From Escherichia phage vB_EcoM_G17: a DNA stretch of 64,000 nucleotides. The stretch lies in sequence record MK327931.1; one strand, 5' to 3'. Under the pieces are notes generated by a model. The model saw only the letters and a program-made list of their open reading frames with translations, was not told where the DNA came from and made no database searches. This document shows positions 22,223 through 59,099 of this stretch, in pieces; positions within the stretch are counted from its first letter, which is position 1, and the number at the start of each line of letters is the position of its first letter. A program made the position numbers and the translations under genes.

Positions 22223-22843
22223 TTAGAGACAGTTGTGTACTATCTTATCAAAAGTACTACTGTCAATGTTATATTCATATAAAAATTTAAAATGTGAACC
22301 GTAACGCATCATCAGATTAAACTCTTCTTCAGTATTGAACTTGTAATCATGAATAGTCTCAGGGGTACATTTTAAACCCAAGAACTCTATAATTTCAGAT
22401 GTTACATCATATCCTGAATTGAAGTATTTAACCCAAACACATTTTCCTTGTGGGTTGTATTTTCTATATTCTCCTTCTAGTTCTCCTTTAATAATATGAG
22501 CCTTAACACTTATTGAATTATTACTATATCTTTCTTCAAAATAATTACCATACTGGGCTTTTGATATTGTTGGTTTTTGAGTAGGAAGTAATTTAACTGA
22601 AGTTACTTCAATTCCATTTTGTAATTCCTTTATATAAGAAATGCATCCTTTTTCTTTAATAACCACATATCCAGTAAAGATATCTTCGTCTTGTGATTGA
22701 TTAATGCAATCATCAAAATTCAAAGTTTTATAAGTAACAGTTTTTTCTTTTCTAATAAATGCCATCATTATTCCTATGGAAACATCAATGAATATACGTG
22801 ACGTTGATTGCATCAACATCAGTAGAATTATCATGCTACGCAT
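22223..22843 (-). CDS. hypothetical protein (206 aa)
   Basis: Minus-strand ORF; no motif recognised. Confidence 0.45.
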   Translation of the reverse strand: MRSMIILLMLMQSTSRIFIDVSIGIMMAFIRKEKTVTYKTLNFDDCINQSQDEDIFTGYVVIKEKGCISYIKELQNGIEVTSVKLLPTQKPTISKAQYGNYFEERYSNNSISVKAHIIKGELEGEYRKYNPQGKCVWVKYFNSGYDVTSEIIEFLGLKCTPETIHDYKFNTEEEFNLMMRYGSHFKFLYEYNIDSSTFDKIVHNCL

Positions 22844-23448
22844 GTCTAATTCTACACAAGTACTATTTTCTTTTAATTAATATTGACGGGGTTTGCTTGA
22901 GCATATTTCATCCCCCCGCAGGGGAAAGAACAAAAAAATTTGACGCTGGTGGCCTTCACATAGTTCATATCACGAATTCTCTTACGAGACGAAAGCGGGT
23001 TGCTCTGTTTCTCTCTATCGCGGTTCTTGTAGCAACGGTCGTCGGTCTTAAACATCCCGACACATAATACAAATACCATATGACCAGTACTTGTATTTGA
23101 TTTCACAAAATTTGGACGCAACTATATTGTATAATTCCGACCGCATATTTCTTATGAAATCTCCCTTAGATAATTGGTAAGGTGCGATCCTTATATGTCT
23201 ATCGAGGAACTCTCTTTATCCTATTGGAGTTCTTTATACAGCCGCATTGCCGTGAGTGGTTCAAACTATGCCATCATCTAACGGGTTTCATCTGCTGTTC
23301 GTACTGAAAGGACTACTCATCTACCCTCTACATTTTCGAGTGGATTAGGCTTTTAATCATTTCCTTATGGGAACCTTTCAGGATTAAAAAAAGGTGACTA
23401 ACATATTATGTTGTCACCTTATATTATATCATTAACTTATCATTTGTC
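22844..23448. other. ~600-bp non-coding island with locally elevated G+C
   Basis: No convincing ORF; G/C-rich tracts ('CATCCCCCCGCAGGGG', 'GCGGGTTGCTCTG', 'CGGTCGTCGG') in an otherwise AT-rich genome; local hairpins. Confidence 0.4.
23384..23422 (-). terminator. rho-independent terminator downstream of gene 23449..24303
   Basis: Stem AAGGTGAC / GTCACCTT (23391-23398 / 23413-23420); T-run follows on minus strand (plus 23386-23392 A7). Confidence 0.6.
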
Positions 23449-24303
23449 TCAGTTATATTCGGTTTTTTCTGTGAAATTTGTTAGTATATCAACACTAAAA
23501 CTTCGAATAACCTCAATCCTGCTTGGCATGAAACGATGTTTATTTTTAATATACAACTCATCATCTTCAATAAAAGACGTAAAAATAAATGTCATATCTT
23601 CACGTGGAATTTGTAAAATATCACACATTTCATTTGCCGATGCTACTGGTGAATCGTTGTAGTACTGAGAGTATGCACTAGATTGGCGACCGATTATAAT
23701 AGAATTTCTGATTAGAAAATTACTACAGTACTGAAAATCTTTGTAGTACTTTTCAATAATGTAAGGCATAAGTGCTTCTTTCACGTCTTCATAACCATTA
23801 GTACTATCAATTGCTATACAGTAATCTTCACGTTCTTTTTTCTCATGATGGTAATCATAAACATACTCAAAGAATGAATTTTTATTTAATGAATCATTTA
23901 AACCAACTGACCCACTATAGTATGATTTTCTATCATTCATTCGATCATCTGGGCATGATGCATACATAGAAGTGTCATGTGATGATGTACCAATATAAAT
24001 TTTCTTAGTAATATGATTATACGCTATGTAATCATAATCTTGAACTCCAGTCAGCATTAACTGGAACATTAAATCATCAGGAACATCAATTAACGGGTAC
24101 TCAAACTTCGAATATCTACTGCGGCAGAAGTTCTTTTCAAATGCTCGGTATGCGATAAAATCTTTTAGATTTTTACAAGATTCATGTTCATGAGCACTAC
24201 TGCTACGTACATTGACATTAGTCGATGTGCAATATCCATCCGAATCTTCGGTGAAGTTACCAGCATAATCCTTATTGTAGTCAACGATTAGATAAAGTTT
24301 CAT
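23449..24303 (-). CDS. hypothetical protein (284 aa)
   Basis: Minus-strand ORF bounded by terminators on both sides. Confidence 0.55.
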   Translation of the reverse strand: MKLYLIVDYNKDYAGNFTEDSDGYCTSTNVNVRSSSAHEHESCKNLKDFIAYRAFEKNFCRSRYSKFEYPLIDVPDDLMFQLMLTGVQDYDYIAYNHITKKIYIGTSSHDTSMYASCPDDRMNDRKSYYSGSVGLNDSLNKNSFFEYVYDYHHEKKEREDYCIAIDSTNGYEDVKEALMPYIIEKYYKDFQYCSNFLIRNSIIIGRQSSAYSQYYNDSPVASANEMCDILQIPREDMTFIFTSFIEDDELYIKNKHRFMPSRIEVIRSFSVDILTNFTEKTEYN

Positions 24304-34367: not shown

Positions 34368-34934
34368 TTATTTTGGTAAAACACTGTCGATGTACGCTAG
34401 AACCTCATCTCGAAGGTACGTTCCATCTATAGTTAGGTAATAGTTCATGGGAATATCACTCCCAACCTTCTCATAAATTTTCATACATGATATCACATCT
34501 TCATCACAAATGGTACTCAATTGAAAAATAACTTCATCGGTTAACGGTACGATATCATGTTTAGATAGGGGATTTGTATTTTCATTCAACACAATATTAA
34601 TCAAGTTAGGAGTATTCTTTGACGAAATATAACGATGCTTACTACGAATTACCATTCTCGATAGTGAAATACTGGAACTCCATCTTGGATCAACATCTTC
34701 ATATGATAACGATATTAACATCTCGTGAAAATCTTGAAATTTCATTGACGCATAATATGTTTTATCCTCACCGTACATACCAAATGATTTAAATTCAATA
34801 TCCCCCACTTTGTATGTATCGACATCATTATTTGAGAACTTTATTAAACTATTAATTAGTCTAATTAGAATATCATCTTTATCCATTCTTAAATAACTCC
34901 AAGTGCATGTCGTATAAATCTCTGAAGTCTTCAT
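34368..34934 (-). CDS. FQxS-family paralogue
   Basis: 188 aa; 'DEVIFQLSTIC'. Confidence 0.55.
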   Translation of the reverse strand: MKTSEIYTTCTWSYLRMDKDDILIRLINSLIKFSNNDVDTYKVGDIEFKSFGMYGEDKTYYASMKFQDFHEMLISLSYEDVDPRWSSSISLSRMVIRSKHRYISSKNTPNLINIVLNENTNPLSKHDIVPLTDEVIFQLSTICDEDVISCMKIYEKVGSDIPMNYYLTIDGTYLRDEVLAYIDSVLPK

Positions 34935-35442
34935 AGAAATCTTTTTCTTCGAGAATATTCTTTAAACTGGGAATCTCTTCCATAATTTCATCTATATCTG
35001 ATTCTATGAAAAATCCTGATGGATTATCGTAGTTTTGTAACAGATAACTGAAAGTAATAATGTAAAGAAGTTCATTAGGATTGTGAATTAAACTTAGCTG
35101 GAACATAGCTGATTCTAAATCTGATTCAGTACTAAGATCAACCCAACGTGAATTTCTATAATCAATTCGTACTTGACTTGTATTTGGATTCCATGTGAAG
35201 CAATGTGTACCAATATGACCTATACAACCAACCCTTGTACTGTCTCCGGTATCAACACTGATATCAACAAATAGTTCAATACCGATATCGGTTGATGTTA
35301 CACGACCTTTTTTCAGAAATAAATCATTATCCTTACGAAATTGTTTGGATGAAAGAGTGTCAATGATGCACATCAATGTTTTTGCAAATGCAACACAATG
35401 ACGAAATTCAAGCCTATGAAATTGGTAATCATTGATATTCAT
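34879..35442 (-). CDS. FQxS-family paralogue
   Basis: 187 aa; 'ESAMFQLSLIH'. Confidence 0.55.
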   Translation of the reverse strand: MNINDYQFHRLEFRHCVAFAKTLMCIIDTLSSKQFRKDNDLFLKKGRVTSTDIGIELFVDISVDTGDSTRVGCIGHIGTHCFTWNPNTSQVRIDYRNSRWVDLSTESDLESAMFQLSLIHNPNELLYIITFSYLLQNYDNPSGFFIESDIDEIMEEIPSLKNILEEKDFYEDFRDLYDMHLELFKNG

Positions 35443-35981
35443 AATTCAACCCTCAATATTTTATCAGCAATAGATATAACCTTATCATTGAATACATTAC
35501 CAATCTCAATCCTTATATACATAGCAGGTGGAATCTTTCCTTGTAGTGAATAATATGTTTGTATACCTAAGTACTCATTATCTGATAATGAAAATTTGAT
35601 TCTCTCCATATCAATGTCTGTTACTGGTAAATCTATCATTTCATAATGGTAGTCAACGTTTTCATTGTATATTTTATCGAAGTAATTTGAATAATCACTA
35701 CTAATGTAGATGCTATCATCACGAATAATTACTTTATAATCAGAAGGTTCAAATTTATCTTTACAGGAAAAGAATGCATCATCTATTTTCTCTTCTCTTA
35801 TGCCAAATAACATTCTACCATCATATTTTACATCAAGAATACTACCTAGTATATTAATGGTACAATGCTCATCAATATTATGATGTAATGAACGTTTTTT
35901 GTATTTTGGGTTAATGAAAATTTTCATTAATTTTATACAAATTTCAGTAATGCATTTTACATTCTCATTTTCTATGTACAT
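35439..35981 (-). CDS. hypothetical protein (180 aa)
   Basis: Minus-strand ORF in the array; motif weak. Confidence 0.45.
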   Translation of the reverse strand: MYIENENVKCITEICIKLMKIFINPKYKKRSLHHNIDEHCTINILGSILDVKYDGRMLFGIREEKIDDAFFSCKDKFEPSDYKVIIRDDSIYISSDYSNYFDKIYNENVDYHYEMIDLPVTDIDMERIKFSLSDNEYLGIQTYYSLQGKIPPAMYIRIEIGNVFNDKVISIADKILRVEL

Positions 35982-36468
35982 TAAAAGCCCTCTTTAATTC
36001 TTTTACATTTTTAATGAATACTTTCATTGCAGAAATCTCAAAAGATAATGTATTAAATTTGCAGTACTTTTTAAAGTACGACATAATATATAACATTTTG
36101 AGTTCTTTTTCTGTATAAATTAAACTGTTTTGAAAGTAACTTTCTTCGGAAATGTCCGTAAGAAAAGAATAAAATGTATTTTGCTTGTGCACAATTTTAA
36201 TACTATCAGACCAAGATTTGTATGAAACGTAATCAGTACGTGCAAAATCATATAGTGAATTAGATGTATCTGTGTATGTTTCCGAGAACACAATCTTATA
36301 TATCTTATCTTGAATTCGAGAACATATGTACCTATGGTCATCTGTCTCACTGATTGCAATGTATCTATGGAGTAAATCTTTATGAGCATTGATGAACTCA
36401 AACACTTCTAAACACTCCCTAGCGAACTTCATAGTTTCTCTGTACTTTCGGTTCATTAGTCTCTCCAA
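35965..36468 (-). CDS. FQxS-family paralogue
   Basis: 167 aa; 'EESYFQNSLIY'. Confidence 0.55.
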   Translation of the reverse strand: MERLMNRKYRETMKFARECLEVFEFINAHKDLLHRYIAISETDDHRYICSRIQDKIYKIVFSETYTDTSNSLYDFARTDYVSYKSWSDSIKIVHKQNTFYSFLTDISEESYFQNSLIYTEKELKMLYIMSYFKKYCKFNTLSFEISAMKVFIKNVKELKRAFNVHRK

Positions 36469-36869
36469 ACTTTACCAGGGAAGTGTTTCTCGTAGTACTC
36501 ATCATCACTTAACATATAATCAGGAGTTTCTACTTCTATGGTTTTGAAGATTGTTTCTGGAATGTGTGTGACTTTATTGGGTTGTACTTTATGTTCGCGT
36601 AAAACCTTCTGTATCGCTCCTAGACGTTGTAAATCGATACATGTAGGAAAGACTAAGCTGTACTGAAATAACTCATCAGGGGTCATTATAGACACATCTT
36701 TAGCTTGTTTGATTTGATAATTAGTACTAATGAATATATCAAATCCTTGTACAGCATTATAGCTTACATAGGTTGTTTTATTTTTGTCAATAGGAGCACT
36801 TAAACGATATCCATATATCCCGTGTTGGTCAACAACACAACGTTGCATAATTTTAATCATTTCTAACAT
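36456..36869 (-). CDS. FQxS-family paralogue
   Basis: 137 aa; 'PDELFQYSLVF'. Confidence 0.55.
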   Translation of the reverse strand: MLEMIKIMQRCVVDQHGIYGYRLSAPIDKNKTTYVSYNAVQGFDIFISTNYQIKQAKDVSIMTPDELFQYSLVFPTCIDLQRLGAIQKVLREHKVQPNKVTHIPETIFKTIEVETPDYMLSDDEYYEKHFPGKVWRD

Positions 36870-37215
36870 AATTTACCTCATATGTATTGTAACACCACGG
36901 TTTAACAATATCGATTTGTATATCATTTGCTTCATGAAAATGTTTAAGTACCTTCTGGTATTCCATTATTTCGTACACATCTTCAGTACTGATAGTGCTC
37001 TGCTGAAACAATTCCTCTTCTGATAAAGTACTATAATCAGGGATTTTTATTTCTGAATATATATCATTTATCTTTCCATTATATTGATAAATCTGGATAT
37101 AAAATTGATTGTATTCTGGAATATAGGTCACATAATGGTTGTGGTTGATTACATATCTTGAAACAAAGTATTCAGTACCATCAGTCATGTACTGAATTGT
37201 TGTCGTATTTTTCAT
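36853..37215 (-). CDS. FQxS-family paralogue
   Basis: 120 aa; 'LSEEELFQQSTIS'. Confidence 0.55.
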   Translation of the reverse strand: MKNTTTIQYMTDGTEYFVSRYVINHNHYVTYIPEYNQFYIQIYQYNGKINDIYSEIKIPDYSTLSEEELFQQSTISTEDVYEIMEYQKVLKHFHEANDIQIDIVKPWCYNTYEVNYVRND

Positions 37216-37675
37216 TCAAATAATCCACGCATTTATAGTATACTACTAAATCTAAAAAGAATCGTTGTTTGTATTTGTAATGATGAAGTAGTGCACCATA
37301 AAATAACATAGCATTAAGTACTTTTACATCATGAATACAAGAACCCTGAAAGTACATTTCCTCTGACATGAACACTAAATCATCATACTTAACAAATACT
37401 GCTTCTCTATAATTGTCAATATTAATCTTCAAATCAGACCCAGGGCAATATGAAATGTATCCGGCTTTGTAATGAAAGTCATTGTCATCAAAGTACTCGG
37501 CATAGATTTGATTACCTCTTTCATTAGTAAACGCAAGTCTTCCTTTGGATGAACTAAACTCATCGTATTCGAACATACCACCAAATGGGTCAGGACTTCT
37601 GAACTCCTTTGCAATGCGATAGATATTTTCTGCAAATTCTAAAACACCATCGTAATCATATTCTGTAGTAATCAT
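37181..37675 (-). CDS. FQxS-family paralogue
   Basis: 164 aa; 'EEMYFQGSCIH'. Confidence 0.55.
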   Translation of the reverse strand: MITTEYDYDGVLEFAENIYRIAKEFRSPDPFGGMFEYDEFSSSKGRLAFTNERGNQIYAEYFDDNDFHYKAGYISYCPGSDLKINIDNYREAVFVKYDDLVFMSEEMYFQGSCIHDVKVLNAMLFYGALLHHYKYKQRFFLDLVVYYKCVDYLNEKYDNNSVHD

Positions 37676-38148
37676 AAACCATTTTTCTCCAGGTACTCAA
37701 TAATACAATCGAGATTGTTCAGGTCCAAGTAGAAATGATCACTATCTGAATTTAGTTCATTTTTAAGGGCAGTGTAAATCACTGAACTGAAAACAATCCT
37801 CTCTGGATACACAGTACTGTACTGGAAGAACTCTTCTTCAGTGTTAATTTCAGCCGTATCAAATCCTTCATTTATAAGATGATGATTGTAGTATTTGAAA
37901 TTATCTGAACTTGGGAAATGGTATGAAATAAAATCACCACTTGGTACTTCATCAAGCACTCTAATACTACAAGTTGATTCATCTGAACTATAGAGTAACC
38001 CATCCATAAAGGAAAGGTATCCATTTCGTTTTTTGACTGTATGTTTGCCTACGGAAAAATCTTCAGTAACATTTGTAAGGAATTTATAAACCCTGATAAT
38101 GTCTTTTGCTATTTTTTGTGCATTGCTAAATGATAGGTCTTTGGACAT
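37672..38148 (-). CDS. FQxS-family paralogue
   Basis: 158 aa; 'EEEFFQYSTVY'. Confidence 0.55.
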   Translation of the reverse strand: MSKDLSFSNAQKIAKDIIRVYKFLTNVTEDFSVGKHTVKKRNGYLSFMDGLLYSSDESTCSIRVLDEVPSGDFISYHFPSSDNFKYYNHHLINEGFDTAEINTEEEFFQYSTVYPERIVFSSVIYTALKNELNSDSDHFYLDLNNLDCIIEYLEKNGL

Positions 38149-38207
38149 TGTGATATAACCCTTTACAATTAATATAAAGAGATTATATCACAAAGAATCG
38201 GAGGGTG

Positions 38208-38792
38208 TCAAGATGGGTTGCGAAGTTCTACCATTTCTTTCCAAACTAATTGGTAATCTTCTAAGTCCAGATAGAAGTCTTCATTCCAGTGCTCATGAAA
38301 GTACTTATACATGAATAGAACTCCTAAATCGTATGCAGGAAACAATAATGATAGTTGAAAGTAGTATTCCTGATTTAAAACTATATCAATAAACTCTAAT
38401 GTACGTATGCCACCTTTCGATGAACGTATCTCAATGTGTGAGGTATCCTTCATACTGTAACACATGAAACCACCTCTAAATTCTGGATCATATTCACATT
38501 CGAACTGCTCACTGTTGTTATAGAAATCTCTCCCACTTTCTTGATCTTTCGGTCTACGTACTGATACATGAATATTTTTATCACGGTACATTGAACGATT
38601 TAGTATTTTCAAACATTTGAACTTATCTTCTTTAATGAACTTGATAATATCAATTATATCTTGTGCTGTACTGATAGCTGATTCGAATGTATCCAACTTA
38701 AGATGATTATATTGGGTTCCAGAGTTCATTTTTTTATCTAACATATAAACCTCATAATTCATACATTTTTGATTTGAACTGCATATGACCAC
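38208..38792 (-). CDS. FQxS-family paralogue
   Basis: 194 aa; 'QEYYFQLSLLF'. Confidence 0.55.
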   Translation of the reverse strand: MVICSSNQKCMNYEVYMLDKKMNSGTQYNHLKLDTFESAISTAQDIIDIIKFIKEDKFKCLKILNRSMYRDKNIHVSVRRPKDQESGRDFYNNSEQFECEYDPEFRGGFMCYSMKDTSHIEIRSSKGGIRTLEFIDIVLNQEYYFQLSLLFPAYDLGVLFMYKYFHEHWNEDFYLDLEDYQLVWKEMVELRNPS

Positions 38793-39093
38793 CTATTTCA
38801 CATGGATAACAATTCATAATTTTGTTCAATAGAATCTGGTATTTTTTAATAACTTCTATATCAATTTTTATATTACTATTAAAAACTAATGATTCTTGAA
38901 ATAATTCCCCCTCGTCAAGTGAAGTAAAATCATTTATCTTCAAGGGTATATTGTTGCATCGCAAGGAGAATGTATTTTCATCACGAATTAAAGTATAGAA
39001 ATCATTATGTTTTTTATTATAATCAAATTTAACAAGTAGTAGTTTAATATGAGTAGCGTACATTACTTTAACTAATTCAGATTCACGTCGCAT
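38752..39093 (-). CDS. FQxS-family paralogue
   Basis: 113 aa; 'EGELFQESLVF'. Confidence 0.55.
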   Translation of the reverse strand: MRRESELVKVMYATHIKLLLVKFDYNKKHNDFYTLIRDENTFSLRCNNIPLKINDFTSLDEGELFQESLVFNSNIKIDIEVIKKYQILLNKIMNCYPCEIGGHMQFKSKMYEL

Positions 39094-39515
39094 ACAATAC
39101 CTCTCTTATGATGCAAACATTCTTGCATAATGTGTTGTATTTTTCGTAACAGAAACACATCCAGTTCATTAAAAACAGTACTGTACTGGAACATCTCTTC
39201 TTCCCCGTACTCAGTTAAATCATCAATTTCATCTCTAGAAACAGCTACAATATTAAAACCACGTGTACTACAATAACCCTTAGTAAGATAATATATGTAC
39301 TTGTACTCTCCGTTGATATCTAAGAGATCTTGTGTGATACAGAAGCTTTTGGGTGACAGTTTATCATCAGGAACCATATGCCTTGCTTGTACATAGCAAC
39401 GGATACCATCACCTATACTATATGTAATAACTTCAAATTCAATCTTCATAGGTGAATATAATCCTTTTATATTGCTCAGGTGCAGTACTGAAACGTTTGA
39501 TTGGATAATTATCAA
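39072..39515 (-). CDS. FQxS-family paralogue
   Basis: 147 aa; 'EEEMFQYSTVF'; start may be the internal Met (MKIEFE). Confidence 0.5.
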   Translation of the reverse strand: MIIIQSNVSVLHLSNIKGLYSPMKIEFEVITYSIGDGIRCYVQARHMVPDDKLSPKSFCITQDLLDINGEYKYIYYLTKGYCSTRGFNIVAVSRDEIDDLTEYGEEEMFQYSTVFNELDVFLLRKIQHIMQECLHHKRGIVCDVNLN

Positions 39516-39801
39516 AGATTCTTTTCATTTCTTTCTGGATTAAACATAAGAAATCAAAGTTACAATCGTACTTATTATCCCATACTAAACTTTCTTGGAA
39601 TAACTCATCCTCTTGCATTAGTGTAGTGTCAATTACATCTTCACGGACATAGCTATATACTTCATAGCTCTTGAAGCCATCTTCTGATAATTCTAATTCA
39701 TATGCAGCCATATCAAACATATCATCATGGTTTGTCTTCAAAGATATTAAACAAGTAACTAATTTTTTAGTTGTATAGTATGTAATACTTAATGTGTTCA
39801 T
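39439..39801 (-). CDS. FQxS-family paralogue
   Basis: 120 aa; 'EDELFQESLVW'. Confidence 0.55.
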   Translation of the reverse strand: MNTLSITYYTTKKLVTCLISLKTNHDDMFDMAAYELELSEDGFKSYEVYSYVREDVIDTTLMQEDELFQESLVWDNKYDCNFDFLCLIQKEMKRIFDNYPIKRFSTAPEQYKRIIFTYED

Positions 39802-39806
39802 TTGTT

Positions 39807-40409
39807 TTATACCTCAGTATATAGCTTACAATAGCTTTCATCGAAATTACAAACACTTCTCAAGTACTGACACAGGTCATTGAAAATATTTACATTTGAT
39901 ATATATACATTATCAAATTCTGTTCGTTGAAAGAATGTATACATAGAATTTGTAATATATCGCATTGCATCTTCACGTCCCATAGTTATATCATTTGTGA
40001 ACATTGCATCTTCATCAGTACTGATGTGTTCTATTTTAAATGATTTCATAAATGGAATACTCTTTCCTAGGGCATAACCATCACCATATGATGCTTCTAC
40101 TGCACCTTTAGAATAAAGGAATTGATATAAGTCCGAATCACGATTATAAAAAGTACGACATACGGAGGAACATAATTTATTATCTATATGAAATAAAAAT
40201 CTTTTAGCATTTTTGTCTAATACTATTCGCAATGCATCACTCTCTAGAAATATATCACCATCAAGCATAAATGAGAACTGTACTAATGCTTTTTCTAAAT
40301 CCGCTCGTTTGTGATAAATCATTTCCTGCATATATATAATATCATTTGCTAATTTCTTAAAAAACAAATGCACATCTGCACTACAACATTTATTTGCATT
40401 TATTGACAT
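39807..40409 (-). CDS. hypothetical protein (200 aa)
   Basis: Minus-strand ORF in the array; motif not evident. Confidence 0.5.
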   Translation of the reverse strand: MSINANKCCSADVHLFFKKLANDIIYMQEMIYHKRADLEKALVQFSFMLDGDIFLESDALRIVLDKNAKRFLFHIDNKLCSSVCRTFYNRDSDLYQFLYSKGAVEASYGDGYALGKSIPFMKSFKIEHISTDEDAMFTNDITMGREDAMRYITNSMYTFFQRTEFDNVYISNVNIFNDLCQYLRSVCNFDESYCKLYTEV

Positions 40410-40960
40410 AATAGTTCCTTATACATATGATGTACTTTACAAATCTCATTATAGTATTTCATATCAATGTCATTTGTATTAAAAACGGAAACAGACAATA
40501 CTGCTAACTTATCAATTAAGTAATTATTATCGGCGTACTGTTTTAACTTATTGAACATATAGATGCATTTTATACTTAATTCATCATGCAACACACTGTT
40601 CTGAAAAATATTCTCTTCAGTATTAGGAGATAAGTAATCTTCAATTATATACGATAAACTACTATCGCAATCTTTATAGATTGAAATTGATGGATGTAAT
40701 GTGTCATACATTACACTAAACAGATCACCGTCATATGTGGATATTAAACTATTATTGGAAACAGTAGGATGATAATATTTCAGTACTGAAAACTTTGAAC
40801 AATCAGTGCAGTAAAAATGATCCATCCCTCGACGACTTTCGTATGAGAATAGTTTACTTGTATATTCAATCCCTTTGGTGCGACGGATTGTTTCATGCAT
40901 TTCTGCACATTGCATTAAAATTACCATACGTTCAAACGCAAGATCTAAATCATCGTACAT
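40400..40960 (-). CDS. FQxS-family paralogue
   Basis: 186 aa; 'EENIFQNSVLH'. Confidence 0.55.
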   Translation of the reverse strand: MYDDLDLAFERMVILMQCAEMHETIRRTKGIEYTSKLFSYESRRGMDHFYCTDCSKFSVLKYYHPTVSNNSLISTYDGDLFSVMYDTLHPSISIYKDCDSSLSYIIEDYLSPNTEENIFQNSVLHDELSIKCIYMFNKLKQYADNNYLIDKLAVLSVSVFNTNDIDMKYYNEICKVHHMYKELLCQ

Positions 40961-46862: not shown

Positions 46863-47060
46863 CTTAATCTCTACTATAATTAATAAGGTAAACTCCAATA
46901 TAAGGAGAACGTTCGGCGGCGGGGTATTTTTTGTTTCAAGAAACATGAACTGTACTCTGAAAAACACAATATAAAACTTTATATTAAACATATACCTTAG
47001 CATGTTTTTCAGCGGAAATTTTTTTGACCCCCCCCTGCGGCCTGTCAAAATGAAACGTCT
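46863..47060. other. ~200-bp non-coding island with G/C-rich tracts
   Basis: 'GAACGTTCGGCGGCGGGG' and 'TTGACCCCCCCCTGCGGCC' in an AT-rich context; no credible ORF. Confidence 0.35.
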
Positions 47061-54395: not shown

Positions 54396-54696
54396 TGATT
54401 CTCCCTGATGTACCTTGTATTAGCTTATCATACATATCGAGCATCACTTTTTGAATACTAATTAGTACTGGCATCGTGCAAATATCAATGTCGTATACTA
54501 AGCTGTACTGGAATAATTCATCTTCCTGCATTTGTACTAAATTAGGTAAAGGATAATTGTCTGCCTCTTCATCCTGGTACTTGAAATGCATAACACCATC
54601 CTTTTTGTACAAAAGAATGTCAATATCACCTAACTCATCAGCATAACCAAAAATACATATACTCGATGTTTTTGCTATATTAAATTTCATCTCCAC
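54370..54696 (-). CDS. FQxS-family paralogue
   Basis: 108 aa; 'MQEDELFQYSLVYD'. Confidence 0.55.
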   Translation of the reverse strand: MEMKFNIAKTSSICIFGYADELGDIDILLYKKDGVMHFKYQDEEADNYPLPNLVQMQEDELFQYSLVYDIDICTMPVLISIQKVMLDMYDKLIQGTSGRIIEIDIQDN

Positions 54697-54932
54697 CTCT
54701 CTCCGTCAGCACAAGAGTACTGGTACGTTGTCGTTAGGGTAGGGACCATGTTTGTAATGGGCATATTATTAACAATAACGGTAACAGGCATAAGAATCGT
54801 CTCTACTCTACTCTGTCCTGTCCTTGTACAATTCATCTTCTGCATTTCATCTGAATCCATGAAATACAATACAAATGGTGCAATCCCAAGAACAATACAC
54901 AAGACGATAAGGAAATTTAAAAAATTTAACAT
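54687..54932 (-). CDS. small membrane protein
   Basis: 81 aa; N-terminal hydrophobic helix 'FLNFLIVLCIVLGIAPFVLYF'. Confidence 0.45.
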   Translation of the reverse strand: MLNFLNFLIVLCIVLGIAPFVLYFMDSDEMQKMNCTRTGQSRVETILMPVTVIVNNMPITNMVPTLTTTYQYSCADGERWR

Positions 54933-54991
54933 AATTTTTACCCTATGATTAACGTTAGTGTACTATATCAGTAATGAAAAGTACTGTCAAG

Positions 54992-55396
54992 CTAGTATTG
55001 CACTGTTCTAATGAAAGTACCTTTACTCATGGATTTAAGCTTATGAACCTCTTCCTGCATACCCTTAATTAACCCTAAAGGTATAGGTAAATCATGTACT
55101 AAGCTGTACTGAAAGTATTCTTCTTCAGATAAAGTACTAACATCTGGAACGCCAATTTTAGTTATATAATCTTGATGTGTTGACCAATAAATTATATCTT
55201 CAGTACTATTGTACTCCCCATATACTGAACAATATTGATGAATATCTTTCCTGTACCCTTGAGCAATAAAGAACTTATCTAATGCATTACCAGCATTAAT
55301 AGAATTTACTTCGATTGTCACAGTACTTGAGCTTGTATAACTCTTAATATTATCAGTACTCTTAATACTCAACGATGTGTTCTTCATAATCACCAT
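54992..55396 (-). CDS. FQxS-family paralogue
   Basis: 134 aa; 'LSEEEYFQYSLVHD'. Confidence 0.55.
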   Translation of the reverse strand: MVIMKNTSLSIKSTDNIKSYTSSSTVTIEVNSINAGNALDKFFIAQGYRKDIHQYCSVYGEYNSTEDIIYWSTHQDYITKIGVPDVSTLSEEEYFQYSLVHDLPIPLGLIKGMQEEVHKLKSMSKGTFIRTVQY

Positions 55397-55706
55397 TAGG
55401 CTCCTGTTTAGATTCTTTCATTAGTACTATCATCTTATGTACTAATGGCATAGGGAACTCTAAATCCCATACTAATGATTCCTGGAAGTATTCCTCTGGT
55501 GATAAAGTACTTAAATCTTTAATATCAACGTGCTTGTATATTTTATTTTCGTAATTAACAAATGATATATATAAATCACTAACATAAGAATCATAGGTAA
55601 TTGTGAATGGCTTACCCTTGTAATCCATTACATCTCTACATAGACTACTTTTGATATATGTATGTTCAAATGATTTATATACCTTGAGTTGTATATTAGT
55701 TTTCAT
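55362..55706 (-). CDS. FQxS-family paralogue
   Basis: 114 aa; 'LSPEEYFQESLVWD'. Confidence 0.55.
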   Translation of the reverse strand: MKTNIQLKVYKSFEHTYIKSSLCRDVMDYKGKPFTITYDSYVSDLYISFVNYENKIYKHVDIKDLSTLSPEEYFQESLVWDLEFPMPLVHKMIVLMKESKQEPNGDYEEHIVEY

Positions 55707-55971
55707 ATTTCTCTTTATTAGCTTGTTTGGTTTTATAGTGAATTAAATCTATTAATGTAATCAAGTACAACGTCAAATAGTACTCTTGTTGATCTGTACC
55801 TAATGATACAAAGAACTTGTGCTCATAGATTAAAACCTGTTTCTCTTCAAATGGACATTTAATCCTCTGTATAGGCTTAAGTAAATGATAGTACTTATTA
55901 AATCTATGATACATTTCTAGTTCTGTCAGTACTTTCATATTAAACACATACTCCATTAGCTGTAGCATCAC
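55696..55971 (-). CDS. LGTNYQE-family small protein
   Basis: 91 aa; 'FVSLGTDQQEY'. Confidence 0.5.
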   Translation of the reverse strand: MMLQLMEYVFNMKVLTELEMYHRFNKYYHLLKPIQRIKCPFEEKQVLIYEHKFFVSLGTDQQEYYLTLYLITLIDLIHYKTKQANKEKYEN

Positions 55972-56161
55972 GTAAAGCTGTCAAATACTTCTGTACGGCT
56001 TGCTCTTGCTTATTTGTACCTAAAAGTATATACATCCATAATTCACTGTAATGTACATCTTGTGTATAAGGGTCATTGTAACTTTTTGATAATATAGCAT
56101 CAAATTCAGATGCATGAACCCTTGTGAACTTAAGAATATCTTGTTGTGTTATGATTCTCAT
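55940..56161 (-). CDS. LGTNYQE-family small protein
   Basis: 73 aa; 'ILLGTNKQEQ'. Confidence 0.55.
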   Translation of the reverse strand: MRIITQQDILKFTRVHASEFDAILSKSYNDPYTQDVHYSELWMYILLGTNKQEQAVQKYLTALRDATANGVCV

Positions 56162-56373
56162 ATCTTTTCCTGTACAATCTGTATAAGAATACCTATGTGT
56201 GAATTAACAGTTCTCTCTTGATGCTGTGTTCCTAAGAGTGTCAGTACTATCATATCTGAACGCAAAAGATTTTTTTCAAGTTCACTTATATCAGTTCTTG
56301 AATCAAGTGCCATATATTTGTGATTATTCTTCCTGAATAGTGCCAAGTACTCTTGGTTTGATATTATCTTCAT
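56158..56373 (-). CDS. LGTNYQE-family small protein
   Basis: 71 aa; 'TLLGTQHQER'. Confidence 0.55.
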   Translation of the reverse strand: MKIISNQEYLALFRKNNHKYMALDSRTDISELEKNLLRSDMIVLTLLGTQHQERTVNSHIGILIQIVQEKI

Positions 56374-56585
56374 AGTTTACTTTTAATTTCCATTAAAAGT
56401 GCTCTAATATGCTCATTGACAAATCGCTCTTGGGAATCTGTGTCTAGGGTGAGAAGCATTCTTAAATCGGAACCTCTGATGGTATATTCTAAATCATTCT
56501 TTGATTCTCGCATAAGTTTCTGAAAGGATGAGAAGTGTAATCCCATGAGTTCAATGTATTCTGCTGTTCCTAGTGGTTTTGGCAT
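56370..56585 (-). CDS. LGTNYQE-family small protein
   Basis: 71 aa; 'LTLDTDSQER'. Confidence 0.5.
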   Translation of the reverse strand: MPKPLGTAEYIELMGLHFSSFQKLMRESKNDLEYTIRGSDLRMLLTLDTDSQERFVNEHIRALLMEIKSKL

Positions 56586-56803
56586 TTTAGTTCAATAGCT
56601 CGTTTAAGTGTATTAATATAATCTTTAATGTCGTGTTCTTGATAGTTCGTTCCAAGGGTAGCTAGAACATAGACTTCATTTCTCTTAATAATTTTATCCA
56701 TATCTGGTATATCTGATGTGTTAATGACGAAGAGCTTCAAAAACAGTCCATTTATGATTGTTAGGTATTCTACATCGGTAATGATTTTCATTTGCATTTG
56801 CAT
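56570..56803 (-). CDS. LGTNYQE-family small protein
   Basis: 77 aa; 'ATLGTNYQEH'. Confidence 0.55.
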   Translation of the reverse strand: MQMQMKIITDVEYLTIINGLFLKLFVINTSDIPDMDKIIKRNEVYVLATLGTNYQEHDIKDYINTLKRAIELKCQNH

Positions 56804-57009
56804 TTTCTCAGTACTGATTCTTTAAGTTCATTGATGTAGCACTCTACATATTCTTCTTGTAGGTTTGTTCCGATATGTAACAGTACTCTTAAATCTGCTC
56901 TCAGTACTTCTTTGTCATCTTCATCTATATCAGACAGTGTTATGTTTAAGAATTTACTTGAACTCTCTATAAGTAATATTACTGAATCACCTTTGCTTAA
57001 AATTTTCAT
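56788..57009 (-). CDS. LGTNYQE-family small protein
   Basis: 73 aa; 'LHIGTNLQEE'. Confidence 0.55.
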   Translation of the reverse strand: MKILSKGDSVILLIESSSKFLNITLSDIDEDDKEVLRADLRVLLHIGTNLQEEYVECYINELKESVLRKCKCK

Positions 57010-57217
57010 AATCTCTTTTTGCTTTCCTCGCCAAAAGGTACATATACGATTCTTCGTATTGTGCTTGGTAGTTTGTGTTTAAGAGTCGAAACAACTTCTG
57101 TTCTGCTAGAACTAGTTGCTTATCTTCATAACAACGGTAGCGTATCAACTTTTTGTATTCGATGTTGATTACATCCATTACTATAAGCCCATGTTCATCA
57201 TCTGTCAAGTGTTTCAT
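56987..57217 (-). CDS. LGTNYQE-family small protein
   Basis: 76 aa; 'RLLNTNYQAQ'. Confidence 0.5.
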   Translation of the reverse strand: MKHLTDDEHGLIVMDVINIEYKKLIRYRCYEDKQLVLAEQKLFRLLNTNYQAQYEESYMYLLARKAKRDYENFKQR

Positions 57218-57456
57218 GCATTTTTTCTTTTTCTTATATGTTTAGTTAAAAGGTATATTAGTTTTCTGATGTATTCTTCTTGATAGTTTGTTCCTAAGAG
57301 TGCAAGAAGTTTTGCTTCAACTAAAGCTAGTTGTCGTTCTTCGAATGTGTGTTCCAGTATGTACTTGGGGTTTGATTTTTTAGCGTAAGCACTATTAGTC
57401 TTCATTACAATCTTATGATATTCATTAGCTGTTAGGATTTTTAAATACTTGATCAT
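57214..57456 (-). CDS. LGTNYQE-family small protein
   Basis: 80 aa; 'ALLGTNYQEE'. Confidence 0.55.
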   Translation of the reverse strand: MIKYLKILTANEYHKIVMKTNSAYAKKSNPKYILEHTFEERQLALVEAKLLALLGTNYQEEYIRKLIYLLTKHIRKRKNA

Positions 57457-57676
57457 GTATCTTTTCCTTTATAGAGAATTTAAGATATCGAAGCATACTT
57501 TCAATGTAATACTCTTGTCTGTCAGTGCCAAGAAAGTACATGAGTTGAATGTATAAAACTTCTGCACTCCTTTCCGCTGGAGACTTGTTTGTGTCGTTTG
57601 GAAGTTGATTTGTATGTTTTCTTGATTTAATTAGTCGTTCTTTTAACTCATCGTCTGTTAAGTATTTCATTTTCAT
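57425..57676 (-). CDS. LGTNYQE-family small protein
   Basis: 83 aa; 'PAERSAEVLYIQLMYFLGTDRQEYY'. Confidence 0.55.
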   Translation of the reverse strand: MKMKYLTDDELKERLIKSRKHTNQLPNDTNKSPAERSAEVLYIQLMYFLGTDRQEYYIESMLRYLKFSIKEKIHDQVFKNPNS

Positions 57677-57902
57677 TTACTTTTTCCTTAATAGTGATTT
57701 TAAGATATCTAATCATACGTGCAACATATTCCTCTTGTCTATCAGTTCCCAGAAGATATGGTAGTGATTGGAATAATACTTCTGCACTCCTTTCTGCTGG
57801 GGTTTGGTTTAGGTCAATTGGACGTTTATTGGTATATCTCTTGGCACGAACTAATCTCTCGACGTATTCATTATAGGTTAAGTATATCATTTCATTTTGC
57901 AT
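57648..57902 (-). CDS. LGTNYQE-family small protein
   Basis: 84 aa; 'PAERSAEVLFQSLPYLLGTDRQEEY' (close to the preceding copy). Confidence 0.55.
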   Translation of the reverse strand: MQNEMIYLTYNEYVERLVRAKRYTNKRPIDLNQTPAERSAEVLFQSLPYLLGTDRQEEYVARMIRYLKITIKEKVNENEILNRR

Positions 57903-58122
57903 TTACTTTTTCCTTAATACTCATTATAAGATGTTCAATCATATTTTGAACCATAAATTCTTGTTTATCAGTTCCAAGAACGTATGGTAGCTTCTGAAAC
58001 AATACATTTGCAGATACTTCAGATATTGATTGATTTGGAACGAACTTAAGAGTAATGTTTTTGGTTTTTAACATCTTCTCTTGAAATTCTTCATTCGTTA
58101 AGTATATCATTTCATTTTGCAT
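57892..58122 (-). CDS. LGTNYQE-family small protein
   Basis: 76 aa; 'YVLGTDKQEF'. Confidence 0.55.
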   Translation of the reverse strand: MQNEMIYLTNEEFQEKMLKTKNITLKFVPNQSISEVSANVLFQKLPYVLGTDKQEFMVQNMIEHLIMSIKEKVNAK

Positions 58123-58338
58123 TTACATTCTCTCATATATATTTTGGGTTAAAAGGTCAATCCAGATTTCCACATATCGTTGTTGGTGTTGCGTCCCTAA
58201 CAGTACACCCAACTTAGCTTCACACTCTAATAACAATCTGGTTTTGTATGGTAGACTTTGGAATCCTATAGTAGCATCTAATTTGGTAATTGCATAGTTG
58301 ATTCGGATGAATCTTTCTTGCAATGTGATGTTGTTCAT
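58123..58338 (-). CDS. LGTNYQE-family small protein
   Basis: 71 aa; 'VLLGTQHQQR'. Confidence 0.55.
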   Translation of the reverse strand: MNNITLQERFIRINYAITKLDATIGFQSLPYKTRLLLECEAKLGVLLGTQHQQRYVEIWIDLLTQNIYERM

Positions 58339-58625: not shown

Positions 58626-58627
58626 TA

Positions 58628-58894: not shown

Positions 58895-59099
58895 TACTAT
58901 TCATGAGTTCTATAAGATAGTTTTCTACCTTACCTTCCTGATAGTTAGTCCCTAGGAAGTTGCACAACACGGCTTCTATGATTTTGATTTTCCTGATATC
59001 AGGCTTCAATCTTTTGTTATTGAATATTTGAATCCTTATATCTCTGGATGCATTTAAACGTTTTTGATATTCATGGTAAGTTAAATGAATCATTTTCAT
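58869..59099 (-). CDS. LGTNYQE-family small protein
   Basis: 76 aa; 'NFLGTNYQEG'. Confidence 0.55.
   Translation of the reverse strand: MKMIHLTYHEYQKRLNASRDIRIQIFNNKRLKPDIRKIKIIEAVLCNFLGTNYQEGKVENYLIELMNSIENKCKGN

What the first reader, a model, noticed from the sequence alone, without database searches (positions are those of the whole stretch)
22844..23448. G+C-rich non-coding island between the methyltransferase operon and the next gene
About 600 bp with no convincing ORF and visibly higher G+C than surrounding coding DNA, containing G/C-rich tracts and several local hairpins, bounded downstream by a strong terminator. I could not fold a tRNA cloverleaf here. It may encode a structured small RNA, be a remnant of horizontally acquired DNA, or hold a regulatory or replication element. 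A smaller look-alike lies at 46863..47060.
Basis: seen in the sequence. Interest (0 to 1): 0.4.

Follow-up and report, generated by a model that had tools for sequence, protein, structure and literature searches.

The report
New large structured phage RNA gene
The "G+C-rich island" is an unannotated gene for a roughly 0.5-kb, intricately folded non-coding RNA on the minus strand, one of 4-5 ancient copies kept in every Rak2-like jumbo phage and also found in enterobacterial integrative islands; it matches no known RNA family and its function is unknown.

Summary
The window is from an Asteriusvirus jumbo coliphage (100% identical to phage Sharanji here). The 605-bp gap is real and holds no conserved ORF. 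Its G+C excess is modest (38% against 33%, z = 1.7).

The gap is not junk. About 480 nt is conserved at roughly 70% identity across several genera of Rak2-like jumbo phages, while the flanking genes no longer align. Each genome carries 4-5 dispersed paralogs in five ancient clades. Complete copies also sit beside integrase and CI genes in Enterobacteriaceae islands.

On 43 copies, a 17-helix fold with two pseudoknots is 96.9% paired, against about 40% when partners are slid. Seventy of 91 pairs show compensatory changes. Twenty-two further copies keep the fold.

G·U far outnumbers A·C, which puts the RNA on the minus strand. Every copy has its own sigma-70-type promoter with an extended -10, and many have an intrinsic terminator.

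Rfam 15 and ARAGORN find nothing, GenBank and RefSeq leave the element unannotated, and five literature searches found no description.

Best reading: a free-standing "RNA moron" encoding a trans-acting structured RNA. Function is unknown; scaffold, decoy or ribozyme are possible. The look-alike at 46863-47060 is unrelated.

The parts
23445..23451 (-). -35-like box TGAGACA of the RNA's own promoter. The family consensus is TG(A/G)(A/G)AC, with TGAAACG in GAP32- and CBB-like phages.
   Evidence: The TG is invariant in the 43-copy alignment. The scan lists this promoter site. It is the same motif as the 'divergent RpoD-like promoter' described for CBB and GAP32 (PMC5259590).
23423..23430 (-). Extended -10 box, TGATATAAT (TGnTATAAT).
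   Evidence: T-TATAAT is invariant in all 43 copies. Promoter scan, 10 of 12 matches with TG. Coordinates.
23381..23420 (-). Hairpin AAGGUGAC..GUCACCUU followed by U7. It is the intrinsic terminator of the preceding gene and lies just after the -10 box. The RNA's predicted start (about 23414-23418) falls in its 5' arm.
   Evidence: Sequence. The same promoter-then-hairpin order is found in all type A and type E copies. The start site is inferred, not measured.
22880..23416 (-). Predicted RNA gene of about 537 nt. The 3' end is uncertain: either the U-run at 22930-22936 or after the conserved tail ending near 22880.
   Evidence: nhmmer family profile hits 22875-23359, E = 4e-119. blastn conservation spans 22873-23353. 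Covariation on alignment A1.
23304..23381 (-). 5' domain. P1 pairs 23375-23381 with 23304-23310 and encloses hairpin P1a (23361-23373) and hairpin P2 (23321-23348).
   Evidence: helices 1-3: 95.6%, 94.3% and 90.5% paired, and 18 of 20 pairs show changes on both sides. Coordinates.
23238..23298 (-). P3 (ACAGC 23294-23298 with GCUGU 23238-23242) and P3a (CCGU 23281-23284 with ACGG 23250-23253). They enclose an exchangeable insert and the invariant block CACGGCAAUGCGGC.
   Evidence: helices 4 and 5 are 100% paired. In P3 three pairs flip, for example AU:32 / UA:11. Independent set: 110/110 and 88/88 pairs kept.
23207..23232 (-). Hairpin P4 (GAACUC...GAGUUC).
   Evidence: helix 6: all 6 pairs show compensatory changes, 97.3% paired.
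23178..23193 (-). Hairpin P5 (UAAGG..CCUUA), preceded by the invariant GAUAGACAUAUA.
   Evidence: helix 7. Invariant columns listed.
23161..23168 (-). Single-stranded block UAAGGGAG, which resembles a Shine-Dalgarno sequence; the AAGGGA core is invariant.
   Evidence: AAGGGA is invariant in 43 of 43 copies.
23105..23136 (-). 28-nt hairpin module with the conserved loop UACAAUAUAG. In the window copy its stem is partly degenerate.
   Evidence: The module lies here in types A-C, in the P11 loop in types D and E, and at both places in 121Q-D and the bacterial copies.
23067..23096 (-). Hairpin P7. Its loop GUCAUAU (23078-23084) forms pseudoknot PK1 with AUAUGAA (22964-22970).
   Evidence: helix 9: 10 of 11 pairs compensatory. 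Helix 10 (PK1): 96.8% paired, 5 of 7 pairs compensatory. Independent set: 153/154.
23040..23062 (-). Hairpin P8.
   Evidence: helix 11: 96.3% paired, 3 of 4 pairs compensatory.
22971..23036 (-). Core pseudoknotted domain. PK2 pairs GUUGC (23032-23036) with GCAAC (22999-23003), which lies in the loop of P10 (22991-23015). P9 pairs 23018-23022 with 22971-22975. P11 is 22979-22988. The domain holds the near-invariant block AGAGAGAAACAGAGCAACCCGCUUUCG.
   Evidence: helices 12-15 are all 100% paired, with 14 of 18 pairs compensatory. Independent set: PK2 110/110, P9 110/110.
22927..22960 (-). First AUCNNCGUCAR repeat (CCAGCGUCAAA), then the U7 run. In types B and D and in the E. coli island copy a covarying hairpin before the U-run makes a canonical intrinsic terminator here; the window copy (type A) lacks that hairpin.
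   Evidence: helix 16: all 5 pairs compensatory in the 22 copies that have it..
22880..22924 (-). 3' conserved tail. P12 hairpin CCCC-UGC-GGGG(GG)AUGA is followed by the second repeat CAAACCCCGUCAA.
   Evidence: helix 17: 99.4% paired, and variation is only C-G to U-G, which is a wobble on this strand. Invariant G-run and GUCA.

Best explanation
The island is a gene for a large structured non-coding RNA of about 490-540 nt, transcribed from the minus strand as its own unit. It has a sigma-70-type promoter (TGAGACA, 17 nt, TGATATAAT). The RNA body follows. In most family members, though not in this type A copy, an intrinsic terminator comes next.

The RNA folds into at least 17 helices with two pseudoknots around blocks of invariant unpaired nucleotides. 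It is one of four paralogs in this phage (types A-D; the window holds type A). The types already existed in the common ancestor of several genera of Rak2-like jumbo phages. The same cassette is also carried, usually as a single copy, beside the integrase and CI-like repressor genes of integrative islands or prophages in Enterobacteriaceae.

Shown: conservation, the fold, the strand, the promoter motif, copy number and distribution.

Inferred: it behaves like a 'moron' made of RNA, a free-standing cassette dropped between unrelated genes. Its product acts in trans as a folded RNA (scaffold, decoy or catalyst). The most likely partner is something common to enterobacterial hosts rather than a neighbouring gene product, because no protein gene travels with it. 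The invariant single-stranded blocks and the conserved hairpin loop UACAAUAUAG are the candidate contact or active surfaces. Expression by host RNA polymerase early in infection, and in lysogens, is inferred from the promoter type.
For: Identity and conservation:
- The window is 100% identical to phage Sharanji, an Asteriusvirus.
- The core 22873-23353 is 66-76% identical in 61 phage records from phages of Escherichia, Salmonella, Klebsiella, Cronobacter, Erwinia, Pectobacterium, Serratia, Yersinia and Xanthomonas. The flanks do not align.
- There are four co-oriented paralogs, about 70-74% identical, at 18, 128, 208 and 261 kb of a 99.5%-identical genome.
- Two independent motif scans of IMG/VR return family members only from contigs of about 350-378 kb or from shorter contigs that may be fragments of such genomes.
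- A neighbour-joining tree gives five paralog clades, each spanning several phages.

Structure:
- RNAalifold predicts 75 pairs, 51 of them with compensatory double changes.
- The curated 91-pair structure is 96.9% paired, against 37-44% for slid partners and 76.6% for shuffles.
- 70 pairs and 699 cells show double changes. The covariation score is 0.507, against 0.06-0.085 for slid partners; 0 of 500 shuffles reach it.
- 22 further copies, each at most 95% identical to any member of the first alignment, keep every core helix.

Strand:
- In helices defined by Watson-Crick pairs only, G·U outnumbers A·C on the minus strand 40:9, and 92:33 in the larger set.
- In the curated structure the ratio is 212:19.

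Transcription signals:
- TG(A/G)(A/G)AC, 17 nt, TGnTATAAT is present in all 43 copies.
- This is the promoter class reported for CBB and GAP32 (PMC5259590).
- A covarying hairpin with a U-run acts as terminator in types B and D.

Not coding and not known:
- No conserved ORF.
- Rfam 15 gives no hit at gathering thresholds in the window. At E <= 10 (window region) and E <= 1 (13 other loci) no match falls on the conserved RNA core; the few weak, sub-threshold hits lie on the flanking terminator hairpin, in neighbouring sequence or outside the elements. No tRNA or tmRNA.

Independence from neighbours:
- Flanking genes of the four copies are unrelated, and copy B lies at a convergent junction with no downstream gene.
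- No protein is shared between islands and jumbo phage next to the RNA.

Bacterial copies.
Against: - There is no expression data for any member. The start site, 3' end and stability are all inferred.
- Single-sequence folding is not unusually stable: z = -1.2 on the RNA strand and -0.4 on the other.
- In the window copy (type A) the promoter lies upstream of a terminator-like hairpin, and no terminator separates the RNA from the downstream gp543-dam genes. This particular copy could therefore be attenuated or act as a long leader.
- The conserved tail beyond the terminator in types B and D is odd for a simple terminated RNA.
- Trans action and a host partner are inferred only from the absence of a conserved neighbour.
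- The alignment is MAFFT-based and the curated structure partly derives from RNAalifold on the same strand. This inflates the 212:19 ratio; the strand-neutral counts do not share that bias.
Confidence: 0.62

Rival explanations
1. It is a large ribozyme: self-cleaving, self-ligating, or acting on another nucleic acid. The pseudoknotted core with invariant unpaired nucleotides would be an active site. This is a special case of the structured-RNA reading.
For: - Its size (about 0.5 kb), two covariation-supported pseudoknots and long invariant unpaired blocks such as GAUAGACAUAUA, CACGGCAAUGCGGC and AGAAACAGAGCAACCCGCUUUCG.
- From general knowledge: most bacterial RNAs this large and this structured whose function is known are ribozymes or ribonucleoprotein cores.
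Against: - No match to any ribozyme model in Rfam 15 (group I, group II, RNase P or the small self-cleavers), even at permissive E-values.
- It is not inserted in a gene, so it is not an intron.
- Nothing in the sequence identifies a cleavage site. No biochemical data exist.
Confidence: 0.12
2. It is a cis-acting leader or riboregulator. The RNA is the 5' untranslated region of the genes downstream (here gp543 and the Dam methyltransferase operon) and controls them by attenuation or by sensing a ligand or protein.
For: - Type A and C copies, including the window copy, lack the internal terminator, so transcription from the RNA promoter should run into the downstream genes.
- The type A copy keeps its place next to the Dam operon in both 121Q-like phages and GAP32.
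- A C-rich strand could pair alternatively with G6 or with UAAGGGAG (sequence).
Against: - Copy B has no downstream gene on its strand.
- Downstream genes of the four copies and of the bacterial copies are unrelated.
- Types B and D and the E. coli island copy carry a canonical terminator before any gene.
- About 0.5 kb with 17 helices is far larger than known leaders.
Confidence: 0.1
3. It marks replication origins. Its transcript would form a persistent R-loop that primes DNA synthesis, as at T4 oriF/oriG or with ColE1 RNA II, and several origins would be spread around the 350-kb genome.
For: - Four to five copies, all in one orientation, are spaced 53-110 kb apart.
- The promoter class is the one found mostly upstream of DNA-synthesis genes in CBB (PMC5259590).
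- There is a G6 / C-rich segment near the 3' end. From general knowledge, ColE1 RNA II is a structured primer precursor of about 550 nt.
Against: - Cumulative GC skew shows no inflection at three of the four copies. The fourth coincides with a switch in gene orientation.
- In bacterial islands the element sits between integrase and CI, not in a replication module.
- An R-loop primer does not need 17 covarying helices and two pseudoknots.
- No AT-rich unwinding element is conserved next to it.
Confidence: 0.08
4. It is a selfish mobile element (a MITE-like or intron-like repeat), or inert horizontally acquired DNA, or a decayed protein gene, with no function for the phage.
For: It is multi-copy, has higher G+C than its surroundings, and is present in unrelated mobile elements, namely jumbo phages and islands with either tyrosine or serine integrases.
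Against: - Each paralog type is orthologous and syntenic across genera, so copies are ancient and retained rather than recently spread.
- Purifying selection on base pairs is strong.
- There are no terminal repeats or target duplications in the sequences read.
- There is no conserved ORF.
Confidence: 0.03

Closest known systems
ROOL (RF03087) and GOLLD (RF01998): large ornate RNAs of phages and prophages that form RNA-only cages (PMC5737381; PMC12286853)
   Same: They are several hundred nucleotides long, with many covarying helices and pseudoknots. They are carried by phages and prophages, are free-standing genes with no obligatory protein partner, and their function is unknown.
   Different: There is no sequence or structure match to either covariance model. 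The hosts here are Enterobacterales and the carriers are Rak2-like jumbo myoviruses, not Firmicutes, rumen or lake organisms. The element is not next to tRNA genes; the nearest tRNA is 13 kb from copy C. It is kept as 4-5 diverged paralogs per genome. Oligomerisation is untested.
Phage 'morons' (promoter-gene-terminator cassettes inserted between unrelated phage genes)
   Same: It has its own sigma-70-type promoter, often its own terminator, and sits between unrelated genes. In temperate elements it occupies the int/cI end where accessory cargo accumulates.
   Different: The cargo is a structured RNA, not a protein. It is also found in strictly lytic jumbo phages and in several copies.
ncRNA001-004 of jumbo phage PA5oct, a distant relative of the Rak2 group, defined by RNA-seq (PMC7318152)
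   Same: They are long (236-619 nt) intergenic non-coding transcripts in a related jumbo phage. Two are highly expressed throughout infection.
   Different: ncRNA001 and ncRNA002 show no sequence similarity to this family (nhmmer --max, E <= 10: no hit). No structure or paralogy has been reported for them.
ColE1 RNA II and T4 oriF/oriG origin transcripts
   Same: A promoter-driven structured RNA of about 0.5 kb (RNA II). T4-like genomes have several origins that depend on a transcript.
   Different: There is no GC-skew signal, no conserved unwinding element, the fold is far more elaborate, and the element occurs at non-replicative positions in islands.
Group I introns and other large ribozymes of T4-like phages
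   Same: Similar size, a pseudoknotted core, and presence in T4-related phages.
   Different: It is not within a gene. There is no hit to Intron_gpI or any other ribozyme model. It has its own promoter.

Membership tests
tRNA / tmRNA | Cloverleaf or tmRNA fold recognised by ARAGORN | tested here: not met
   0 genes in the whole window. In the full related genome the only tRNAs are at 31-35 kb.
Any Rfam 15 family (including group I/II introns, RNase P, 6S, riboswitches, ROOL, GOLLD, OLE, HEARO, small ribozymes) | Covariance-model score at or above the family's gathering threshold | tested here: not met
   0 matches at gathering thresholds in 64 kb. At E <= 10 in 22600-23700 there are only chance-level hits, all far below gathering scores; most lie on the terminator hairpin or in flanking coding sequence, and one (sn2417, 15.3 bits) lies in the RNA's 5' region. 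At E <= 1 in 13 other loci that hold copies, there is no hit inside the element.
Large ornate phage-borne RNAs (a descriptive group: ROOL, GOLLD) | More than 400 nt, with many covariation-supported helices and pseudoknots | tested here: met
   About 490-540 nt, 17 helices, 2 pseudoknots, 70 of 91 pairs compensatory.
Large ornate phage-borne RNAs (a descriptive group: ROOL, GOLLD) | Located in phages or prophages, typically beside tRNA genes | tested here: inconclusive
   The phage and prophage location is met. tRNA adjacency is not met.
Large ornate phage-borne RNAs (a descriptive group: ROOL, GOLLD) | Homo-oligomeric RNA-only assembly | not testable with these tools
   This needs native gels, SEC-MALS or cryo-EM of in vitro transcripts.
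Phage moron (independent transcription cassette) | Own promoter and terminator, inserted between unrelated genes | tested here: met
   The promoter is in 43 of 43 copies. A terminator is present in types B and D but not in A or C. Neighbours are unrelated. Activity of these signals was not measured.
R-loop replication origin (T4 oriF/oriG type) | A promoter followed by an AT-rich DNA-unwinding element, with replication starting there | tested here: inconclusive
   A promoter is present. No conserved AT-rich unwinding element is seen, and there is no skew inflection at 3 of 4 copies. Initiation itself cannot be tested here.
Protein-coding gene | A conserved open reading frame | tested here: not met
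   The longest ORFs are 26-85 aa and differ in strand and position among 26 homologues. Indels are not multiples of three.

The most novel reading that the evidence does not exclude
This is a previously undescribed class of large, pseudoknotted RNA with a biochemical activity of its own: catalysis, self-assembly into a multi-subunit particle from the 4-5 paralogs, or high-affinity capture of a conserved enterobacterial factor. Jumbo phages would keep it as a small gene family, and integrative islands would also carry it, as a weapon or shield in phage-host or phage-phage conflict.
Probability: 0.45. Interest if true: 0.9.

Novelty: categorically new. Interest (0 to 1): 0.8.

Why it matters
Bacterial and phage RNAs this large and this intricately folded are rare. 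Those whose function has been worked out are ribozymes, ribonucleoprotein cores or self-assembling RNA cages.

This family is unannotated in about 60 published jumbo-phage genomes and in RefSeq E. coli chromosomes. It lives in easily cultured coliphages (121Q, PBECO4, phAPEC6, Sharanji) and in E. coli itself, so it is directly testable by genetics, RNA-seq and cryo-EM.

Three features point to an important, non-redundant role in infection or in conflicts between mobile elements:
- 4-5 diverged paralogs have been retained since before the genera split.
- The same cassette occurs in lytic jumbo phages and in integrase/CI islands, one of which also carries candidate defence systems.
- No partner gene travels with it.

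Practically, these loci should be annotated as an ncRNA gene, and an Rfam family could be built from the alignment.

Tried and rejected
- Known RNAs. Rfam was searched at gathering and at permissive E-values on the window and on 13 other loci, and ARAGORN was run. Nothing was found.
- Thermodynamics. Single-sequence folding z-scores (-1.2 and -0.4) and a comparison of folding energy on the two strands in 34 sequences (18 favour the plus strand, 16 the minus) were uninformative.
- A first helix finder that tolerated both G·T and A·C produced mostly false helices and was dropped.
- The first RNAalifold run was on an alignment contaminated by 9 chance pattern matches (L014, L023, L025, L026, L030, L034, L035, L039, L042) and was messy. 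These loci were removed after nhmmer.
- MAFFT Q-INS-i and X-INS-i structural alignment is not installed. No covariance model was built, because the RNA exceeds the 400-column limit and nhmmer plus MAFFT sufficed.
- No paralogs lie within the window or within 20 kb either side in GAP32. They were found only after fetching a whole genome.
- The look-alike at 46863-47060 is not a family member.
- PA5oct ncRNA001 and ncRNA002 are not homologous.
- tRNA adjacency is absent.
- GC skew gives no origin signal.
- A search for a protein shared by the islands and the jumbo phage found only a DUF4326 domain, 13 kb from any copy.
- Five literature searches found no description of the family and no transcriptome of an Asteriusvirus. 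One 2026 preprint on mining non-coding elements could not be opened.
Full report
**What the window is.** Bases 22700-23600 are 100% identical to Escherichia phage Sharanji (OR545507.1), an Asteriusvirus. This is a 350-kb 'Rak2-like' jumbo myovirus related to 121Q, PBECO4 and phAPEC6. All genes around the finding lie on the minus strand. The window runs across the end of the Sharanji record: window 46373 equals record position 1.

**Checking the observation.** 22844-23448 is an unannotated 605-bp gap between gp543 (22223-22843) and gp544 (23449-24303).
- ORFs inside it are at most 89 aa, and none is conserved among homologues.
- The G+C excess is real but modest: 38.2% against a window mean of 33.0% (sd 3.05% for 605-nt windows), z = 1.7. 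In all, 5.6% of 605-nt windows, mostly coding, reach the same value.
- The 'strong terminator' is a hairpin plus U7 on the minus strand (23420-23381). It therefore lies at the upstream end of the gap in the direction of transcription and ends gp544.
- The 'look-alike' at 46863-47060 shares nothing detectable with the island.

**Conservation and copy number.**
- A distant blastn of the island against 50,697 phage records hits 61 records, all jumbo phages of this clade. They are phages of Escherichia, Salmonella, Klebsiella, Cronobacter (GAP32), Pectobacterium (CBB), Serratia (BF), Erwinia, Yersinia and Xanthomonas.
- Outside Asteriusvirus the match is 66-76% identical and confined to query positions about 30-510, that is window 22873-23353. 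Almost all the records leave the stretch unannotated. The flanking coding DNA does not align at all, so the non-coding stretch is the best-conserved DNA in the neighbourhood.
- Each record showed 4-5 'places'. I fetched a whole unannotated genome that is 99.5% identical (OR844650.1). It has four co-oriented copies at 18.3, 128.3, 208.1 and 261.5 kb, 70-74% identical to one another.
- Three copies lie between minus-strand genes. One lies at a convergent junction with no gene downstream. The flanking proteins of the four copies are unrelated.

**Family membership.**
- Two independent conserved motifs were scanned against IMG/VR. After an nhmmer check, true members were found only in contigs of about 350-378 kb or in shorter contigs that may be fragments of such genomes.
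- A neighbour-joining tree of 42 distinct copies gives five clades, A to E. 121Q, GAP32, CBB and Yersinia phage fHe-Yen9-04 each contribute copies to clades A-D; GAP32's fourth copy, truncated at a locus end, was not in the tree. The duplications therefore predate the split of these genera, and every paralog has been retained.
- The type A copy keeps its position beside the Dam methyltransferase operon in GAP32.

**It is a structured RNA.**
- Alignments show blocks of near-invariant sequence separated by hairpins whose two arms change together.
- On the 43-sequence alignment A1, in RNA orientation, RNAalifold predicts 75 pairs, 51 of them with compensatory double changes.
- I curated a 91-pair, 17-helix structure that adds two pseudoknots found by a strand-neutral search using Watson-Crick pairs only. 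PK1 joins the loop of hairpin P7 to a distal strand. PK2 joins GUUGC to GCAAC in the loop of P10.
- Counted on A1, 96.9% of 3651 cells form standard pairs. The figure is 36.7-43.9% when partners are slid by 1-3 columns and 76.6% in shuffles.
- 70 pairs and 699 cells have changes on both sides. The covariation score is 0.507, against 0.064-0.085 for slid partners and 0.169 for shuffles; 0 of 500 shuffles reach any observed value.
- P3, P3a, PK2, P9, P10 and P11 are 100% paired.
- As an independent test I added 22 further copies from metagenomes and bacterial genomes, each at most 95% identical to any A1 member. They keep P3 110/110, P3a 88/88, PK1 153/154, PK2 110/110 and P9 110/110.
- Single-sequence thermodynamics are unremarkable. 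The evidence is comparative.

**Strand and transcription signals.**
- In helices defined without allowing wobble pairs, the exceptions are mostly A·C when read on the plus strand, which is G·U on the minus strand: 40 against 9 in the first set and 92 against 33 in A1. In the curated structure the ratio is 212 against 19.
- On that strand every one of the 43 copies has TG(A/G)(A/G)AC, about 17 nt, then TGnTATAAT, roughly 55-105 nt upstream of the conserved core. In the window this is TGAGACA at 23451-23445 and TGATATAAT at 23431-23423.
- This is the 'divergent RpoD-like' promoter (-35 TGAAACG) described for CBB and GAP32 (PMC5259590). The bacterial copies have it too, so it is most simply a host sigma-70 promoter with an extended -10 box.
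- Types B and D and the E. coli island copy carry a covarying hairpin plus U6-7, a canonical terminator, after the first CGUCAR repeat. Types A (the window copy) and C do not.
- Beyond the terminator, a CCCC/GGGG hairpin and a second CGUCAR repeat remain conserved. That hairpin varies only by C-G to U-G, so RNA-level selection on the same strand continues there.

**Not a known RNA and not coding.** Rfam 15 (4227 families) gives nothing at gathering thresholds in 64 kb. At permissive E-values no match falls on the conserved RNA core in the window or inside the element in 13 other loci. ARAGORN finds nothing. There is no conserved ORF. Five full-text searches found no description of the element and no transcriptome of these phages. 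PA5oct, a distant relative, has RNA-seq-defined long ncRNAs (PMC7318152), but its ncRNA001 and ncRNA002 are not homologous.

**Beyond jumbo phages.** The second motif also hits 'bacterial' assemblies.
- Six are true, full-length members (nhmmer E about 1e-76 to 1e-86): Enterobacter chinensis, Silvania hatchlandensis, Enterobacteriaceae RIT714, a Buttiauxella MAG, an Enterobacteriaceae MAG and a mis-binned 2.8-kb contig. Local G+C is 33-51%, and 39-51% in the five larger contigs.
- In E. chinensis the RNA lies between a CI-like repressor (HTH_3 plus Peptidase_S24, with a divergent Cro-like gene) and a large serine recombinase.
- In RIT714 it lies just downstream of a tyrosine integrase next to chromosomal corC. 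In the Enterobacteriaceae MAG it lies beside a CI-like repressor next to thiM/thiD.
- Between RIT714 and E. chinensis only the 715-bp RNA cassette (96.5% identical) and one other short stretch are shared, while the integrase modules differ.
- Two of 5426 complete E. coli genomes carry a full copy (nhmmer E = 3e-130), unannotated by PGAP. It sits in an integrase-bearing island at ffs that also holds the candidate defence systems PDC-M45 (DuOB, DUF488, mSLOG/DUF4326) and PDC-S16.
- No protein next to the RNA is shared between the islands and the jumbo phage.
- The metagenome scan adds 60 loci, 58 of them true members.

**How it most likely works.**
- Shown: an ancient, strongly constrained, pseudoknotted fold of about 0.5 kb on the minus strand; a promoter motif on every copy; 4-5 retained paralogs; and occurrence as a portable cassette in unrelated mobile elements.
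- Inferred: it is a free-standing RNA gene, an 'RNA moron', whose product acts in trans as a folded molecule. No protein gene co-travels with it, and the carriers share only their enterobacterial hosts. The partner is therefore more likely a conserved host component, or the RNA itself through assembly or catalysis, than a neighbouring gene product.
- Candidate functional surfaces are the invariant unpaired blocks (GAUGAG, GAAACCCGU, CACGGCAAUGCGGC, GAUAGACAUAUA, UAAGGGAG, AGAAACAGAGCAACCCGCUUUCG), the conserved loop UACAAUAUAG of a movable hairpin module, and the duplicated CGUCAR repeat.
- I cannot say which activity it has.
- Rivals. A cis leader is contradicted by copy B, by the unrelated downstream genes and by the terminators. 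A transcript-primed replication origin gets no support from GC skew, and the island position beside int/cI argues against it. A selfish repeat is contradicted by the ancient syntenic paralogs.

**Comparison with what is known.** The nearest analogues are ROOL and GOLLD, which are also large, ornate, phage- or prophage-borne, free-standing and of unknown function. This RNA fails their covariance models, is not next to tRNA genes, occurs in Enterobacterales and their jumbo phages, and is kept as a small paralogous family. It therefore resembles that descriptive group but is not a member of any described family.

**Caveats.**
- There is no expression evidence for any member, and both ends are predicted.
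- The alignment is MAFFT-based, and no R-scape or Infernal statistics were run.
- Sequences are phylogenetically related, so cell counts overstate the number of independent events. The slid-partner control and the independent test set address this.
- In the window's own type A copy, the promoter precedes a terminator-like hairpin and nothing terminates transcription before gp543. This copy may behave differently from types B and D.

Noticed in passing
L077:2422-3165, L075:6177-6920, L071:6318-7094, L074:3478-4191, L070:2715-3457, L138:8900-9560: Full-length copies of the same RNA cassette occur in Enterobacteriaceae chromosomes, beside integrase and CI-like repressor genes of prophage-like islands. 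The E. coli LR-29-1 island at ffs also carries the candidate defence systems PDC-M45 and PDC-S16. PGAP leaves the RNA unannotated.
   Followed up: partly
window 22939-22950 and 22883-22894 (A1 columns about 686-697 and 776-787): The two CGUCAR repeats change together by lineage. They read CGUCAA at both sites in all Asteriusvirus paralogs and in the bacterial copies, and CGUCAG at both sites in all paralogs of GAP32-, CBB-, BF- and Yen9-04-like phages. This suggests either a common trans-acting reader or gene conversion.
   Followed up: no
window 23381-23451: In paralog types A and E the RNA promoter sits upstream of, and partly inside, the terminator hairpin of the preceding gene. The stop codon of gp544 overlaps the -35 box. 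In types B-D the order is terminator, then promoter.
   Followed up: partly
It holds a C8 tract, an A/T-rich palindrome and a TGAAACG motif on the plus strand. It was not characterised further.
   Followed up: partly
window 46373: The window runs across the end and start of the linear Sharanji GenBank record. The window therefore comes from a differently permuted or circularised assembly of the same or a near-identical phage.
   Followed up: partly
window 22766-22843: The annotated start of gp543 (ATG at 22843) is probably too far upstream. An ATG at about 22772 is preceded by AGGAA, and the GAP32 orthologue is 174 aa against 206 aa. The non-coding gap may therefore be about 70 bp longer than annotated.
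   Followed up: no
window about 54400-62100 (Sharanji gp020-gp051): There is a long run of about 30 consecutive small minus-strand ORFs of roughly 65-90 aa, all annotated 'hypothetical protein'. It may be a tandem family of small early genes.
   Followed up: no
Sharanji record 34817-40817 (locus L003; outside the window): About 6 kb is almost free of annotated genes. It lies just before a strand switch and a run of seven or more roughly 380-aa plus-strand paralog-like ORFs. It contains no copy of this RNA.
   Followed up: no
A1 columns 265-324 (window 23254-23280): The insert inside helix P3 exists in a short form (loop CAUAGUUUGUA) and a long form of about 45 nt. The two forms are distributed across paralog types rather than by type, which implies exchange between copies.
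   Followed up: no
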